Below, piece by piece: positions 11,157 to 17,422 of a DNA stretch of 64,000 bases; position 1 is the first letter of the stretch; the number at the start of each line of letters is the position of its first letter. A program made the translations under genes and the position numbers. A model generated the notes under the pieces. It saw only the letters and a list, made by a program, of their open reading frames with translations. It did not search any database and was not told the DNA's origin. Origin of the DNA: Microthyrium microscopicum. Its lineage: Eukaryota. Where the stretch lies: the NCBI GenBank assembly GCA_010405405.1, contig MU004235.1, positions 1,378,538-1,442,537 of the forward strand, in the 5' to 3' direction.

Positions 11157-11970
11157 GCGAGTGGACTTGTATATTAGGTGTGAACTGTAAAGGGGTGGTG
11201 GGTTGATGAAGGTACTTGGTAAGAAGGAAGGAATTCGCCACTCTGATAGGCTTGGTGGCTTGATACCAAGAGAATGAGCATACAGGAAGCATTGAAATGT
11301 TTGTATTTATTTGTCAATCTGATTGTTCTATAAACATTTGGTGGAGCTGCCAATATTGGAGACCTTGATACATGTATCATTGTGTACTGTGAAGCTACTG
11401 AGTAGTATATATCAAAGATTTAAATCCCCGAAGAACAGGAGTTAGCTGCAACTTAACACAGTTAGAAATATTAGAGCTCCTCTTTCACTTTTATATAATT
11501 CAAAGGGACAAGTTTCATCCATCTCAGATTTTAGAGCTCTCAGATGCTTTGAGGTCGATTTATATGACAGGGATTCCTGGTTCAGCGCAGGCGACCAAAC
11601 CAACGTCACCCAAACTTGACATGAGCTACTCCACCACCATCCATCAACCTCCATCTCTAAAACACCTACAACCTACAACTTCACGCCCTGAGCTTCTACT
11701 TCTTCCACCTTCTTCATAGAATCAGAAAAGAAAAGGTCACTAAGCTTGGGTTACCTTAGGCCCCTACTACGTGACCGCATCCTCACCCATTTCTATTGCT
11801 ACCGGGCTCTTCGCCGTTGCCTCCTCAAACCAAAACCTCCACAACCTTCGACTGCTAAACCTACTGCTCGACATTTTGCCAACAAGCCTACAGGCCAGCG
11901 TTCTACCACAAGTCCCCCTACTGCCAAGCGCACAGCACAACGAGAATATCCTGACAGACCACGCGCAACG

Positions 11971-13079
11971 ATGGTAAATCCTCACTGCTGATAGTACCAA
12001 CGTAGCATCTGACAATATCACAGTACCGCGCAACAGATTTCGATCCATCGGATCCAATGTCCATGTACCAGGCCGCCATGCGCAATGGTCGAGGACGCAA
12101 CTTCGACGAATACTTCCGATGCTACCCCATTGCCATGCTGCCAGGTCCCGATCGTCCAGATGCGAACCACGGCGGCAAAGTCTTCCTACCACCCTCGGCC
12201 CTTGACAAACTCACGCGGCTACACATTACATACCCTATGCTCTTTGAGCTCAAAAACAACAAAGTGAAGACTCAAACACATGCGGGTGTCTTGGAGTTCA
12301 TCGCCGAAGAAGGAAAGATCTATCTTCCGTACTGGTTGATGCAAACCCTCGTCCTTGAACCAGGCGATCTCGTACAAGTTCAAAGCACCGACCTGCCACT
12401 GGGCACATTCATCAAGCTCCAACCTCAAGATGTTAGCTTCCTTGATATCTCCGATCCAAAGGCCGTCCTTGAAAACGCCTTCCGCAACTTCGCATGTCTC
12501 ACCACTGGCGATACCTTCACATTCTCATACAACGATACGACATATAGCATAGCTGTGCTCGAGACGAAACCGGAAAACCCGAAGAACGCGATATGTACAC
12601 TAGAGACCGATCTGAGCGTCGATTTCGCACCACCAATAGGCTACGAAGAGCCAAGTCGGAAAACTAGCGGGACCAGCACGCCCCGTAGCATGACCGGTGG
12701 TCTCGCAGGCAAAGGTGGTGTAGTACACGCGCAAGGCTCCATGGCTCAGGCCATCAACTACGCGTCAATCGCACCATCAGCTCCCGGCGCACCCGTTGCG
12801 TCAGTCCATTTCTCTGGCTCGGGTAATCGGTTAGCGCCGCGCAAAGGCAAGGCTGCTGCTTCGCGGTCAGAGACGCCTGTGGATACACCAAAGAGTGCGC
12901 CGCCGCGGGCAGTGAATGGCCCTCAGCCGTTGAGATTGGGACCGGGGAAATTGTTCTTTGGCTATGCGGTCACGCCGGTCAAGAAGAAGGAGGATGGAGA
13001 GGCGGAGAAAGAGAGCGTGCATTTCGCTGGCTCAGGGCAGACTTTGCGGAAAAAGAAGGGTGATGGGAAAGATAAATAG
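11971..13079 (+). CDS. UFD1: Ubiquitin fusion degradation protein Ufd1
   Basis: FDEYFRCYP, GGKVFLPPSALDKLTRLHITYPMLFEL, THAGVLEFIAEEG and C-terminal SHP-like boxes FSGSGNRL/FAGSGQTL. Probable ATG-only first exon 11971-11973, intron 11974-12023. An in-frame ATG at 12057 is an alternative start. Confidence 0.93.
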
Positions 13080-13536
13080 ACTCCGCGTTATGAACGAGAC
13101 GTTTTGGTGGGTGGTGGGAATACCCCGTGGATTAGACCATTTTGTTATGAATTGAGTTATGAGCATAATTGTTGGGACAAGATGATAGCAATAATGCCCT
13201 TCCCCTCGCGATACGGAATTTTCCAGGACTTTCAACTGTTCAAAGTTCTTTTTACCAGGCTCGGCCTAACTTATATCGCCAACCAGGTTTGCAATAATGA
13301 ATACGAGGATACAATTAGCAGCATTCGGCCCCTTTATATAAATATCCGCACCCTGTAAGCAGATCTTATATCGGCCATCATACTTCCATGGTCAACATCA
13401 TTCTATGTAAAGATCGAGCGATCGCAATAACTCTACATATATGGGAACGATAACAAAGAACTGATCTCAGATCTCTGCGGCTATTCCAATATTCTCCTGA
13501 TTTTGGCGTTGCAATAGCGCAGTAATTGTATTCCTG

Positions 13537-15014
13537 ATGCACGCCATTCTTAGCCCTATTAGCCTTTTTCTACTAACCTCCATCGTCCTTTCATCAATCC
13601 TCGCCGCACACACTCGTAAGTCCTTCTCCCTTTCCATCCGAATTTCCCGCAACTAACGCTGACTAGTAGAACCTCTATCACCACCGCCCAGATTTCAACC
13701 CCGTTCTCCCCAGCTTGGAGCCGCCGTAGATGGCCTAGTAGGCAGTCTAGGTTCCTTAGTTTCTGGGCTAGGTTCAGGCCTCGCTACAACGCTCGACTGC
13801 TCCCTAGGGGCACTCTTCGGCGGTTGTAAAAAAGATAAGCCTGGTATTTTAGGCGCAACTGTTAATGGATTGGTGGGTGGTCTTGGGGGTATTGTCAGCG
13901 GTGTTGGGAAGGGACTTGGAGGGACTTTGGACGGGGCTTTAAGTCCGTTGGTCGGGAAAGGCAAGAACGCAACAAGGAAAGATGAGGGAAAGGATAAGGG
14001 GAGGTTACATCCGAGGAATGCAAAGGCAGAGCCACAACTTGGTGATGTGCTTGGTGGACTTGTGGGTGGACTGGGTAGTATCGTTGGAGGCTTGGGTACT
14101 GGACTGGGAAATACGTTGAGTGGGACTTTGGGACCTCTTTTGGGCGGGAGTGGTTCTGCGCCGAAGGCTTCGTCGACTCCACGACCAGTACCGAGACCGG
14201 AAATTAGACCGGAGCATAGCAGTAGGCCTTCGCCTAGGCCTGAAGGTAGACCAGACCGTAGGCCAGAGCAGGATCAACGTCCCGATGGACGGCCACAGCA
14301 ATCCAGTTACAGGAACGAAAAGAAGGCCTCTGTAACCATCACGACTGCCAGAGATTCAGTTTACTGCCGCAAGAATCCAGATACCATCAGCACAGACACA
14401 GACGTCCTGCCGATATATCCCCTCTCGTCGAAAATACAAGTCCGATGCTGGAGTTCACCTTCGATTTCAGGAAATAGTGGACGTGTAGATGGAGAATCGA
14501 TATGGCTACAGACTGCTGAGGGCTGTTATATCAACAAGGCCGAAGTTAGACGAGGCGAGGTTCGTGGCGAGTCTCGTGGCGAGTCTCGTGGAGACGATGC
14601 ATTCCAATCTATACTGAACGAGTGCCCACCGAAGAAACGCTGGATTGGTATGCTTCAAAGCCAGTATTCCCGAGCAGACTGCTATGATTGTCCGAGCCTT
14701 GATTGTCCTTCGACGAATGTTCGTACTGGATATGTTGATGTTGTTTGTGGTGCAAAGGGAGAAGTTGTTAGGGGTGATGATGTAAGTTCTTCGCGAATTA
14801 TTCTTCGGCCGACTTGTATGGTCTCATCAGATATCCAGCCACAATGAGAGGATATTCAACTGACAAGTTCACAGAGATGGTATCGTAGCAGCCAGCGGTG
14901 CTTTTTTCCTGCTGCTGTGTTTAACCCAAATGGATGGCTCGGTGAGTTTTGGCGCACTATCTGCTTGGTGTACGATACTGATATCTTTCAGGGACGCCGG
15001 GTCAAAGTTGTTGA
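13537..15014 (+). CDS. Secreted protein: signal peptide, 3 Gly/Leu amphipathic repeats, Arg/Pro linker, 2 Cys-containing SH3-like cell-wall-binding domains
   Basis: Exons 13537-13615, 13667-14781, 14875-14941 and 14992-15014, with canonical introns, in frame. The N-terminus MHAILSPISLFLLTSIVLSSILA is a signal peptide. Ends ...GTPGQSC*. Confidence 0.8.
14554..14595 (+). repeat. 12-bp coding tandem repeat (GEVR-GESR-GESR-GD)
   Basis: ggcgaggttcgt ggcgagtctcgt ggcgagtctcgt ggagac read directly. Confidence 0.85.
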
Positions 15015-15590
15015 ACGAGGTTCTAGCCATGGCTACCTGACTGCGCTTGAAAACACATAGTGAATATGGCTGTCTTCGGCGTGTCTGATATCGATCAGCC
15101 GCCGGCTCAATTTCTAGTGACTGGCAGACATTATAGTCGCAACTGGACAGCAAAGCAAAAGATCGGAGGCGAACGGCTGGTGATTTAGACACGAGATGAA
15201 ATGGATGAGTAGAAGAGAGGTGCGTAGTGGTGATGAGACGAGAACTATCAGATCCGCATCTCACGTTGAGAATACAACTTGATGTCATTATTCAGGATCT
15301 ACCATACGCAGTAACGCAGAGTGTGAAAGATACCTATCGGCAGCCGCAGCATCGTCATATTTTGTATTCCACGATGGAAAGCAATCTTGCTCACAACGTC
15401 ACTAGATCTATATGACTGCCTTTCCACATGTTGGCGGAAGGCTTCCTACAGGAACCATCCTTCTAGAAGGTTATCAGATTACAACTGGGAACGCAATCAA
15501 CCATTCCAAAGCAAACATGTAACTGTGCTATATTCCGCTGTATCACAGGTGTGGCCACTTCTTCCCCGTGATAAAACTCCAACTTTCCAC

Positions 15591-16187
15591 TCATGCTAAC
15601 TCAGTCTCGTGCTGGTTGGCTATCAATTTTCGACGTAACCTCTCCTCCCTACAGGCAAAAGCCATGGTGACAATATGGAGGCCCCTTGATCAGTACTCAG
15701 CTTTCGCTCAATTCAAATGCGAACAGCTCGAAAAACTTACGAGAGGATAAGAAGAAGCCAAGAGAGTATGGCCGGCCCAGTTGTACCTATCAAGAACGAT
15801 CCAGTCAAGAAAGATGAAAACAACAGTGCCCCGAATAACACTATATCAGTAGTGATCAGACACCCAAGAAAAAGCCTGGATCGGAAGGCGATAACATCTT
15901 GGTGCCAGGTGTTTCTAAACTCCACTGCGTTGGGAATTGCGGCGAAGAATATCTAATTTGCAAGCAGTAAGTACTTTGGGTAAATGCTTAAAGGTTGTTG
16001 AGAGTTTACGAACCACAACCAAGAGCTCTCCATGAAATATTCTATAATTGCCTCGAGGACTCTGAAGCCAAGGATTGGCAAGAAGTGCTACACATATGAT
16101 GAAAGACAGGAAAAGTAAGACTAAATTGAAAAGTCTGATGCGTTGATACCACAGTAAGGCAGTGGGTCTTCTTTGAAAGGTACTCAT
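15591..16187 (-). CDS. Small orphan multi-pass membrane protein (~160 aa, ~4 TM)
   Basis: Three exons joined by GTTCGT..TAG and GTAAGT..CTGAT..AAG introns give a continuous frame: MSTFQRRP...LFNLVLLFLSFIICVALLA...|IFFAAIPNAVEF...LFLGCLITTDIVLFGALLF...|GLHIVTMAFACREERLRRK...ELA*. Confidence 0.6.
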
Positions 16188-17422
16188 GATGATTGAAGCC
16201 GTGTTTTAACGAGTAAGTGGTGTGGAGAATGTAATAGAGACAATTGCATGATGTCCTTGTGAGAGCTGATATTTTCTGGATATAGAACGCACCTGAGCAT
16301 ATGCTTCTTGGTTGGAAGGCGCTGGCCTGCCTTTTATGTCTAGATTGAATAGATTCATATCGACGAGGTTCTCGCCGCATTCACTTTATCTACCCTGCAT
16401 TAAGTGATCTTTAGACAAATCCAACGCCAATCCAACCCAACAGGCATGTTTTAGCATAGTGTGCGCGAAGTCTTATAACTCAAGAACTGCGTTGGCCCAT
16501 ATTGTGGACTGCAATGAGCGAAATATATGTTCTTGAGGGTTTGAGGTCCTGCTTCGTAGATGAATCTTCTGCAGCTCATGTTCTAGTAGCAGCATGATGT
16601 ATATGAATCATCAGTGATCATTAAGGGGCAGATTACAATCCGTCCTATATGTACTATTCCTAGTGGACGAGCTATGTAAACCAGTGGTAGGTAAGGAATG
16701 TTGCTGTGGTGGCCAAGTGACCGAATCTATGCCCACATTGATTGATGGCATGATTTCGCAGTTCATAAAGCATATGTGAACGATGCCATTAAGAGAAATA
16801 TAGCATGAGGGCCATCGAAGCGGCCTAGTATTCCCCGCGCACAGAGGCCTTCTCGTTACTGTGCCGCCCAAAACTATTCTTATATAAATTGACCCATAGC
16901 CCTGGGAATTTACTCTAACTTCTCACTTCGGGGTACACATGCATGAGGGATTCACAAGTCAGTACTAACTTACCACAGCCTTTTCTAAAACTCTAATGTA
17001 TCTATGATATCGCGGCAATAAAAGTATACTTTGTGATAAGTGTAACAATACATCATATTGAATTTGCTTTGTGTCATCCGTTCGGCCTATAAGGCTGAGG
17101 CTGTTGTTATGCTACATTTGATTGGTGGGGCGCTGAATCTGATGGACGGAACAAGCTGGTCGTACCTTTTATCGACCTGCACAACTTTAGGAGGAAATAA
17201 GAAAGACGATTCCATGTCTTCCCTTCAAAGAGATTATCTAGCTCTATTTCAGACTGCCGTGAGCTTTGTAGGGACCCATTGCATCCGCTACAATCCATAG
17301 CACTCGACTAGGAACACATTTTATGGTGGCCGTTGAGTAAGATGGGAGATATAAGTTTATAAAGGCTGTTGGTTTTCTCCACTTAGATAGATTTCGTCAA
17401 CAAATGCTTCTGACTTCCCTGG

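What the first reader, a model, noticed from the sequence alone, without database searches (positions are those of the whole stretch)
13537..15014. Secreted precursor fusing processed amphipathic peptides to tandem SH3-like cell-wall-binding domains: candidate targeted antimicrobial system
Seen: the ORF track shows only part of this gene. The spliced 4-exon model gives a signal peptide, three Gly/Leu repeats, an Arg/Pro linker, and two modules: YCRKNP..VRCWS..G.SIWLQTAEGCYI..C and CYDCPSLDC..VVCGAKGEVVRGDD|RWYRSSQRCFF..C*. Known: this Cys/Trp spacing (C-R..C..G..V.G...W.....C-Y/F....C) resembles the fungal SH3-like cell-wall-binding domain normally appended to GH24 muramidases and NlpC/P60 peptidases. 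Inference: no catalytic domain is present, so the binding modules may deliver or accompany membrane-active or surface-active peptides. I do not recognise this architecture from any described protein.
Basis: partly seen in the sequence, partly recalled or inferred. Interest (0 to 1): 0.8.

Follow-up and report, generated by a model that had tools for sequence, protein, structure and literature searches.

The report
Fungal enzyme-less SH3-pair peptide precursor
A real, spliced fungal gene encodes a secreted protein that is probably cut into Gly/Leu-rich lipid-binding peptides and a pair of bacterial-cell-wall-binding-type domains with no enzyme attached, and it belongs to an unnamed family spread across Dothideomycete fungi.

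Summary
The gene is real. An RNA-type contig joins all three introns exactly, giving 427 aa: signal peptide, three ~37-aa Gly/Leu repeats, an Arg/Pro linker and two Cys-rich modules. Both modules are SH3-like. Module 1 matches the fungal muramidase cell-wall-binding domain (PDB 8b2f, Z 11.2, 1.6 Å, on a homologue's model) and keeps its four cysteines and peptide-binding Arg. Module 2 is more diverged.

The pair defines an unannotated, enzyme-less Dothideomycete family (78 of 108 proteins examined; five genes in this genome). The multi-repeat form occurs in only 7 metagenomic relatives. The repeats are near-neutral 11-mer amphipathic helices. A Kex2/Ste13-type Arg-(XA/XP)n-Gln signal precedes the last repeat in 7 of 7 multi-repeat proteins.

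Against tethered delivery: a dibasic site just before module 1 (KR/RR in 7 of 8 clade members, KK here) would free the pair, and many family members lack such repeats.

Best reading: a processed polyprotein releasing lipid-surface peptides plus a free wall-binding pair, probably aimed at bacteria (0.4). Binding, cleavage and killing are untested.

The parts
13335..13342 (+). TATA-like element about 200 nt upstream of the start codon
   Evidence: Seen in sequence; function not tested
13537..13615 (+). Exon 1: predicted signal peptide (about aa 1-24, 13537-13608)
   Evidence: hydrophobic core flagged by a crude test; cleavage site inferred
13616..13666 (+). Intron 1 (51 nt, GT..AG); the first of two tandem AG acceptors is the one seen spliced
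   Evidence: Joint 13615 to 13667 in RNA-type contig
13667..14781 (+). Exon 2: pro-segment, three repeats, linker, module 1, first two thirds of module 2
13693..13713 (+). Predicted processing site 1: Arg39 (Pro at P2, Phe at P4), one XP dipeptide, then Gln42 (Kex2 + Ste13 type, possible pyroglutamate)
   Evidence: same motif before repeat 1 in P0005, P0008, P0009; motif definitions from PMC8528282, PMC6339444, PMC9769878; cleavage inferred
13711..13821 (+). Gly/Leu repeat 1 (aa 42-78): 11-mer amphipathic helix, net charge -2; Cys71 and Cys80 may close a short loop
   Evidence: best angle 97 degrees; 2 of 2000 shuffles; both Cys also in P0005, P0007, P0008, P0009
13843..13956 (+). Gly/Leu repeat 2 (aa 86-123), net charge 0, preceded only by a KK pair
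   Evidence: 1 of 2000 shuffles
14005..14037 (+). Predicted processing site 2: LxxR motif ending at Arg143, three XA/XP dipeptides, then Gln150
   Evidence: equivalent signal before the last repeat in 7 of 7 multi-repeat proteins; cleavage inferred
14035..14148 (+). Gly/Leu repeat 3 (aa 150-187), net charge -1
   Evidence: 0 of 2000 shuffles
14149..14325 (+). Arg/Pro-rich linker (aa 188-246; 13 Pro, 11 Arg) ending in KK at 14320-14325, where clade relatives have KR or RR
14329..14625 (+). SH3-like module 1 (aa 248-346): Cys260/287/313/346 match the two disulfides of the fungal CWBD; Arg261 corresponds to the triglycine-binding Arg10; short Gly-Glu-Ser-Arg repeat insertion before the last Cys
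   Evidence: model of homologue P0010 vs 8b2f Z 11.2, rmsd 1.6 A over 74 residues; PMC10394673 Fig. 3 legend
14635..15011 (+). SH3-like module 2 (aa 350-427), split by introns 2 and 3: Cys365/387/407/427 plus extra Cys368/Cys373; Tyr366 where the CWBD has Arg
   Evidence: Profile-profile match to module 1, probability 93.4, E 2.4e-7; structural matches to bacterial SH3b domains, best Z 7.3-7.4, rmsd 2.0-2.4 A over 64-65 residues
14782..14874 (+). Intron 2 (93 nt, GT..AG)
   Evidence: absent in paralog L005
14875..14941 (+). Exon 3
14942..14991 (+). Intron 3 (50 nt, GT..AG)
14992..15014 (+). Exon 4: last Cys and stop codon

Best explanation
A secreted polyprotein precursor. SHOWN: the gene is spliced to 427 aa, its repeats have 11-mer amphipathic periodicity, and its C-terminal pair has the fungal SH3-like wall-binding fold (modelled on a homologue) with no catalytic domain. 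INFERRED, step 1: Kex2 cuts after Arg39 and Arg143, Ste13 trims the XA/XP dipeptides, and Gln42 and Gln150 become pyroglutamate-capped N-termini. A further cut at the basic pair before module 1 is likely in relatives and less sure here (KK). The products are a ~100-aa peptide with repeats 1-2, a ~97-aa peptide with repeat 3 and the linker, and a ~180-aa disulfide-stabilised SH3 pair. INFERRED, step 2: the pair binds bacterial envelope polymers (peptidoglycan peptides, possibly teichoic acids) as a non-lytic, lectin-like protein. The near-neutral Gly/Leu helices fold on lipid surfaces and disturb or coat membranes. The products are co-secreted in fixed ratio rather than covalently delivered, and together serve to capture or antagonise bacteria.
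For: Splicing confirmed. The nearest structures are the fungal CWBDs (Z 10.8-11.2, next row 7.4), and ranks 4-47 are almost all bacterial or phage wall-associated SH3b-type domains (one search agrees). The T. saccata CWBD binds Micrococcus cells but not Avicel and is not lytic alone (PMC10394673, sections 3.2 and Table 2). All four CWBD cysteines are kept in both modules, and Arg follows the first Cys of module 1 here and in 48 of 68 family members. Three family members give weak matches to the N-terminal region of the bacterial wall hydrolase GsmA (E 2e-4 to 6e-3, far below cut-off). The Arg-(XA/XP)n-Gln signal precedes the last repeat in 7 of 7 multi-repeat proteins (chance of any such motif per shuffled protein 0.05-0.18), and a stricter form occurs in 18 of 44 family N-termini against a shuffled mean of 2.1 (maximum 10 in 500 shuffles). 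The genome has a kexin P-domain gene and DPPIV-family genes. Uncharged Gly/Leu-rich antimicrobial peptides exist (PMC8156082, passages). Gly-rich amphipathic segments of charge -3 to +2 recur in 20 of 43 testable family members, in several subclades.
Against: No binding, cleavage or activity data. The two N-terminal sites have Pro at P2 (tolerated, not canonical), and the site before module 1 is KK, the weakest form. Repeats 1 and 2 are not separated by a conserved site. Module 2 lacks the peptide-binding Arg (Tyr in 85 of 98 rows), so its ligand may differ. A shared fold shows no function, and module 1 is only about 24% identical to the solved CWBDs. 23 of 43 testable family members have no significant amphipathic segment, and the 20 that do include 8 close relatives. 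Near-neutral 11-mer helices typically coat lipid surfaces rather than lyse them (perilipin-type; PMC5889406, passages). Synthetic KEP-derived peptides of Coprinopsis showed no antibacterial activity (PMC9769878, passage). No GH24, GH25, NlpC/P60 or Pfam SH3_3 match was found in this genome with those queries, so there is no sign of a wider bacteriolytic toolkit.
Confidence: 0.4

Rival explanations
1. Surface-coat or adhesion protein of the Rep1/Hum3 kind: the processed amphipathic peptides self-assemble on the hyphal or spore surface or on plant wax, and the SH3 pair has shifted to a fungal-wall or plant-surface ligand.
For: Near-neutral, weakly hydrophobic 11-mer helices suit interface coating. 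Ustilago Rep1 and Hum3 are Kex2-type amphipathic repeat precursors, Hum3 with a folded C-terminal domain (PMC4617103, table passages). Paralogs carry Ser/Thr/Pro-rich stalks typical of surface proteins (typicality from own knowledge). Module 2 has lost the Arg. No bacteriolytic enzymes were found with the queries used.
Against: Every close structural neighbour binds bacterial wall polymers or belongs to a protein that acts on them. Module 1 keeps the peptide-binding Arg. No sequence likeness to Rep1 or hydrophobins appeared in Pfam.
Confidence: 0.25
2. The Gly/Leu region is a disposable pro-region (sorting, solubility or membrane tether during secretion), and the only working product is the SH3 pair, a non-catalytic binder that senses, sequesters or agglutinates peptidoglycan, by analogy with LysM effectors such as Ecp6 for chitin.
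For: The pair is the only part shared by all 78 family members, and several consist of little more than signal peptide and pair. N-terminal regions are highly variable. Kex2-removed pro-domains are common in fungal effectors (PMC8528282).
Against: The repeats are conserved in sequence, period and number (3-4 in the complete ones) across relatives whose module regions are only about 50% identical. Each unit has its own Ste13-type signal and N-terminal Gln, which suggests a protected mature product rather than waste (PMC9769878).
Confidence: 0.2
3. One reading: repeat 3 stays joined to the SH3 pair, which docks on the bacterial wall and concentrates a membrane-active helix there.
For: In this protein the site before module 1 is only KK and the upstream RR is followed by Pro, so the repeat 3-linker-pair fragment could survive intact. 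Across the whole family only 18 of 58 members have a dibasic pair at that position, so single-helix members may stay tethered.
Against: 7 of 8 members of the clade have canonical KR or RR at exactly that position. Repeats 1-2 are cut off upstream in any case. Near-neutral helices are weak candidates for lysis.
Confidence: 0.1

Closest known systems
[quoted passage not shown] 2023, PMC10394673; PDB 8b2f, 8b2g, 8b2s)
   Same: Fold (Z 10.8-11.2, rmsd 1.6-1.7 A over 72-74 residues for module 1 of homologue P0010), four-cysteine pattern in both modules, and the triglycine-binding Arg in module 1.
   Different: There the domain is N-terminal to a catalytic domain (GH24, GH184, GH73, amidase, C40, M23 in its Fig. 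5 legend). Here two diverged copies end the protein with no enzyme. Module 2 has Tyr for Arg and an extra cysteine pair. The family is below Pfam SH3_3 detection.
Kex2-processed repeat proteins (KEPs; Le Marquer 2019, PMC6339444; Vogt 2022, PMC9769878)
   Same: Signal peptide, repeated units, Ste13-type XA/XP dipeptides after an Arg, and N-terminal Gln suited to pyroglutamate.
   Different: The main sites here are single-Arg (xxPR), not KR/RR. Not every repeat is flanked by a site. Units are long amphipathic helices, and a folded SH3 pair follows.
Ustilago maydis Rep1 and Hum3 (PMC4617103 table; PMC8528282)
   Same: Amphipathic repeats of about 31-55 aa separated by Kex2-type sites; Hum3 adds a folded C-terminal domain.
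   Different: No sequence relationship detected. The C-terminal domain is an SH3 pair, not a hydrophobin. Three repeats rather than 12-17.
Gly/Leu-rich antimicrobial peptides (leptoglycin, XT7, plasticins; PMC8156082 passages)
   Same: Gly/Leu-rich, uncharged or weakly charged, released from secreted precursors (precursor origin recalled).
   Different: Animal peptides with no homology shown; resemblance is compositional only and activity is untested here.
11-mer-repeat lipid-binding helices (perilipin 4, apolipoproteins, alpha-synuclein; PMC5889406 passages)
   Same: 3 x 11-residue units with best helical angle 97 degrees; low confidence or disorder in the AlphaFold model of ortholog P0009, as expected for helices that fold on lipid.
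   Different: Analogy of helix type only; those proteins are unrelated, and the perilipin 4 repeats carry charged polar faces.

Membership tests
Fungal SH3-like CWBD (Moroz 2023) | SH3-like open beta-barrel superposing on TsCWBD/PvCWBD | tested here: met
   Model of homologue P0010 (52% identical to this protein over the pair; pLDDT 89): module 1 Z 11.2, rmsd 1.6 A, 74 aligned. The window's own spliced protein was not modelled.
Fungal SH3-like CWBD (Moroz 2023) | Same fold for module 2 | tested here: met
   Profile match to module 1 (probability 93.4, E 2.4e-7) and to canonical fungal SH3b repeats of P0082 and P0100 (E 3e-5 to 4e-7 at Z=1000); structural Z up to 7.4 with bacterial SH3b domains, which alone would be only middling.
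Fungal SH3-like CWBD (Moroz 2023) | Four conserved cysteines (Cys9-Cys53, Cys33-Cys72 in TsCWBD) | tested here: met
   Cys260/313/287/346 and Cys365/407/387/427, each 97-100% conserved in the alignment. The bonds themselves were not inspected.
Fungal SH3-like CWBD (Moroz 2023) | Arg10 side chain that binds triglycine | tested here: inconclusive
   Kept in module 1 (Arg261; 48 of 68 family members); replaced by Tyr in module 2.
Fungal SH3-like CWBD (Moroz 2023) | Binds bacterial cells or peptidoglycan peptides | not testable with these tools
   Needs a pull-down.
CWBD-bearing muramidases and peptidases (GH24, GH184, C40, M23, GH73, amidase) | A catalytic domain on the same chain | tested here: not met
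   No Pfam domain above cut-off in exon 2; the protein ends at the last Cys of module 2. Among 39 family rows with a complete module 2, 33 end within 10 residues and the longest tail is 55. No Pfam hit at E<=0.001 for any pair-family member among 104 proteins scanned.
KEPs (Le Marquer 2019) | Signal peptide | tested here: inconclusive
   Crude hydrophobicity test positive; no SignalP-type tool.
KEPs (Le Marquer 2019) | At least three repeated motifs | tested here: met
   Three repeats, each matching a profile built from them and their relatives at E 1e-12 or better.
KEPs (Le Marquer 2019) | Repeats separated by KR/RR/KK Kex2 sites | tested here: inconclusive
   KK before repeat 2, RK and a single-Arg LxxR site before repeat 3, single Arg before repeat 1; no KR or RR flanks a repeat here. 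Relatives have RR before the last repeat.
KEPs (Le Marquer 2019) | Actual release of peptides | not testable with these tools
   Needs peptidomics.
Repellents (Rep1) | [quoted passage not shown] | not testable with these tools
   Needs biophysics; amphipathicity alone is met.
Gly/Leu-rich antimicrobial peptides | Antimicrobial activity | not testable with these tools
   Composition fits (Gly 24-39%, Leu/Val/Ile 32-37%, charge -2 to 0); activity unknown.

The most novel reading that the evidence does not exclude
Dothideomycetes of the Venturiales/Phaeotrichales group have turned a muramidase-type wall-binding domain into an expanded, enzyme-free two-part antibacterial system: a conserved SH3 pair that marks or captures bacterial walls, and interchangeable pyroglutamate-capped Gly-rich amphipathic peptides, made from the same precursor, that attack the membrane. 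This would be a fungal counterpart of modular, targeted bacteriocin-like toxins.
Probability: 0.2. Interest if true: 0.8.

Novelty: new variant of a known kind. Interest (0 to 1): 0.55.

Why it matters
The fungal SH3-like wall-binding domain was described only as an accessory of peptidoglycan-degrading enzymes in the paper that defined it. Here it forms a multigene, enzyme-free secreted family that Pfam misses and databases call hypothetical, including a member in the plant pathogen Venturia effusa. If the pair binds bacterial walls, these fungi have a dedicated bacteria-recognising protein comparable to LysM effectors for chitin. If the co-released Gly/Leu helices are active, they give a concrete function to a class of orphan Kex2/Ste13-processed peptides. 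Both points can be tested with one recombinant domain and three synthetic peptides.

Tried and rejected
Complex prediction of the three-repeat region with the SH3 pair of ortholog P0009 gave no answer (score 0.09, mark 0.34); it is not evidence either way.

AlphaFold of full-length P0009 left the repeats at low confidence (pLDDT mostly under 55), so no fold search was run on them. The ESM Atlas gave no usable hit for the repeat region; for the modules its top cluster was a putative fungal SH3b protein (0.94, recognition value below the reliability mark).

No stand-alone Gly/Leu precursor was found: 0 of 924 short candidates scored, and the genome gave only the gene itself plus an unrelated E 0.3 hit. 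These searches are weak for low-complexity sequence.

Foldseek alone gave no match at E<=0.001; the structural claim rests on VIA-align.

Two weak genome hits (L015, L021) are not paralogs. The second AG acceptor at 13669 was considered; the contig shows 13666. UniRef titles 'Cyanovirin-N domain-containing' on P0029 and P0040 have no Pfam support and were set aside.

My first family-wide amphipathicity run (25 of 49) used a loose shuffle and mis-sliced four fragments; it was replaced (20 of 43). One search had off-by-one exon ends, corrected. The profile used for the 1.84-billion search (426 positions) unintentionally included the repeat region; P0102 is a spurious result of that.

Only one sequencing run was listed and it is kept as contigs, so expression level, strand and induction could not be assessed.

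Literature: no paper held all terms. Searches listed nothing describing this family. 'SH3' does not occur in the main text of two Venturia effector surveys (PMC9632046; PMC5412055). Their supplements, the supplement of PMC10394673 and the patents it cites were not read and could list such proteins; subscription journals are not covered.

Full report
OBSERVATION. The window is intron-containing fungal DNA; the neighbours are UFD1 upstream and a GH92 gene downstream. The gene runs from 13537 to 15014 on the + strand in four exons: 13537-13615, 13667-14781, 14875-14941 and 14992-15014. One public run was listed for the region. Its single laid contig skips exactly these three GT..AG introns (51, 93 and 50 nt) and one intron of UFD1, with no other letters in this gene. 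The run is RNA only by guess, but intron-free joints are what a transcript gives. Paralog L005 lacks intron 2 and reads through the same junction in one frame. The product has 427 residues and 12 cysteines.

THE TWO MODULES. [quoted passage not shown] I could not model the spliced protein itself, so I modelled homologue P0010, which is identical at 87 of 166 aligned positions of the pair. The model is confident (mean pLDDT 89). Module 1 superposes on 8b2f, 8b2s and 8b2g at Z 10.8-11.2, rmsd 1.6-1.7 A over 72-74 residues; the next row is Z 7.4 (against 48,161 chains, agrees). Module 2 matches bacterial and phage SH3b wall-binding domains at Z up to 7.4, which is middling by itself. Its profile also matches module 1 (probability 93.4, E 2.4e-7) and the canonical fungal SH3b repeats of P0082 and P0100. 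Foldseek alone gave nothing at E<=0.001.

In PMC10394673 (sections 2.2, 3 and 4, figure legends and Tables 1-3 in part read; supplement not read) the CWBD has two conserved disulfides, binds Micrococcus cells but not Avicel, binds triglycine through Arg10, and is not lytic alone. Both modules here keep all four cysteines. Module 1 keeps the Arg (Arg261; 48 of 68 family members). Module 2 has Tyr instead (85 of 98 rows) and an extra cysteine pair. The most conserved stretch among the closest relatives is the start of module 2, which suggests its own ligand or interface.

THE FAMILY. A profile search of 1.84 billion cluster representatives gave 101 hits. Of 108 proteins examined (the spliced protein plus 107 fetched, with some redundancy and many intron-truncated gene calls), 78 carry both modules in order. 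None of the pair-family members among 104 proteins scanned has a Pfam hit at E<=0.001. Of 39 rows with a complete module 2, 33 end within 10 residues and the longest tail is 55; the longest member is 603 aa with a low-complexity N-terminus. I found no catalytic fusion. Of 30 homologues looked up, 10 carry organism names: Trichodelitschia bisporula (4), Tothia fuscella (3), Venturia effusa, Clohesyomyces aquaticus and Dendryphion nanum (the last outside my pair threshold); all are titled hypothetical or uncharacterised at NCBI. The first four species are Dothideomycetes of the Phaeotrichales, Venturiales and Pleosporales.

This genome has five pair genes (this one and L002-L005) and one single-module gene (L006), the others with Pro-, Gly- or Ser/Thr-rich N-termini. 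No GH24, GH25, NlpC/P60 or Pfam SH3_3 match was found in it, nor a match to a canonical SH3b enzyme beyond a weak hit to paralog L003; this does not prove absence.

THE REPEATS. The three repeats (aa 42-78, 86-123, 150-187) are 24-39% Gly and 32-37% Leu/Val/Ile, with net charge -2, 0 and -1. Their hydrophobic moment peaks at 97 degrees, the 11-residue period, and was reached by 2, 1 and 0 of 2000 shuffles. This is the helix type of lipid-surface proteins such as perilipin 4 (PMC5889406, passages). Uncharged Gly/Leu-rich antimicrobial peptides also exist (PMC8156082, passages). A profile built from these repeats finds them in 8 of 113 proteins: this one and seven unnamed metagenomic relatives, with 3-4 copies where complete. 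In a tree of the pair (69 rows) the seven multi-repeat rows included and P0010 form one branch with support 94/82, just short of the tool's star. Single Gly-rich amphipathic segments are wider: 20 of 43 testable members are significant under a local shuffle, with charges -3 to +2, spread over several subclades. Eight of the 20 are the close relatives, and 23 members have none.

PROCESSING. Repeats 1 and 3 each follow an Arg, then one or three XA/XP dipeptides, then Gln. This is the Kex2/Ste13 signature, and N-terminal Gln of such peptides is found as pyroglutamate (PMC6339444 and PMC9769878, passages). Pro at P2 with an aliphatic P4 is a tolerated Kex2 site (PMC8528282, first third read). The signal precedes the last repeat in 7 of 7 multi-repeat proteins, where a shuffled N-terminus shows any such motif with probability 0.05-0.18. 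A stricter form occurs in 18 of 44 family N-termini against a shuffled mean of 2.1. Such Arg-X-Pro-Gln starts are common in fungal secreted proteins (own knowledge), so the internal copy is the informative one. Kexin and DPPIV-family genes are present. A basic pair sits just before module 1 in 8 of 8 clade members: KR or RR in seven, KK here. Family-wide only 18 of 58 have it, against 9% of background windows. No conserved site separates repeats 1 and 2.

HOW IT MOST LIKELY WORKS. Shown: splicing, fold class, lack of an enzyme, helical periodicity and conserved processing motifs. Inferred: cleavage into a repeat 1-2 peptide, a repeat 3-linker peptide and a free SH3 pair; non-lytic binding of the pair to bacterial envelope polymers; adsorption of the helices to lipid surfaces; and a joint role in capturing or antagonising bacteria (0.4). 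The last stays possible for this protein because its site is only KK.

COMPARISON AND NOVELTY. The modules belong with the fungal CWBD by fold and cysteines; binding is untested. The protein is not a CWBD-bearing muramidase or peptidase, since the catalytic domain is absent. It works like a Kex2-processed repeat precursor, but does not clearly meet the KEP rule of canonical sites between all repeats. My paper searches found no description of this family or architecture (term counts in PMC9632046 and PMC5412055), with supplements, patents and subscription journals unseen. A stand-alone SH3 protein has been reported in phage lysis cassettes (PMC13164509, abstract). The scan's notes hold nothing similar by sequence and two bacterial enzyme-less SH3b-repeat cases by words. 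Verdict: a real and apparently undescribed combination of known parts; new variant of a known kind; interest 0.55.

Noticed in passing
window 11701-15528: The single RNA-type contig spans both UFD1 and this gene, including the 457-nt gap between their coding regions. This may be read-through, overlapping UTRs or an assembly merge; a contig cannot tell.
   Followed up: no
window 13664-13669: Intron 1 ends in two in-frame AG acceptors three bases apart; only the first is seen in the contig.
   Followed up: partly
window about 14545-14595: A short Gly-Glu-Ser-Arg-type repeat insertion near the end of module 1, absent from P0003, P0009 and P0010; four other relatives have a shorter, different insertion there.
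   Followed up: no
L002 730-1400 and L004 690-1200: Two paralogs share a further Cys-containing region upstream of the SH3 pair (also in P0095) with no Pfam hit in P0015 or P0095; possibly an unnamed small domain.
   Followed up: no
L006 (G000:C6:1471799-1475023): A gene with a single module-1-type domain followed by a long Pro/Ser/Thr/Ala stalk, i.e. the reverse arrangement; similar proteins P0091, P0098 and P0103 exist.
   Followed up: partly
proteins P0088, P0089, P0099, P0105, P0101, P0106: Other secreted-looking fungal proteins with two or three SH3-like modules and no Pfam domain; enzyme-free SH3-like proteins extend beyond the pair family.
   Followed up: no
proteins P0026, P0031, P0040, P0041, P0087: N-terminal segments with glycine-zipper-like small-xxx-Gly spacing in place of the 11-mer repeats.
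   Followed up: partly
L002 2450-3080 (minus strand): A neighbouring gene with Lys/Ala- and Pro/Ala/Gly-rich repeats lies tail-to-tail with paralog L002.
   Followed up: no
window 15915-16205 (minus strand): A 96-codon open frame with a hydrophobic stretch lies downstream, between this gene and the GH92 gene; not identified.
   Followed up: no
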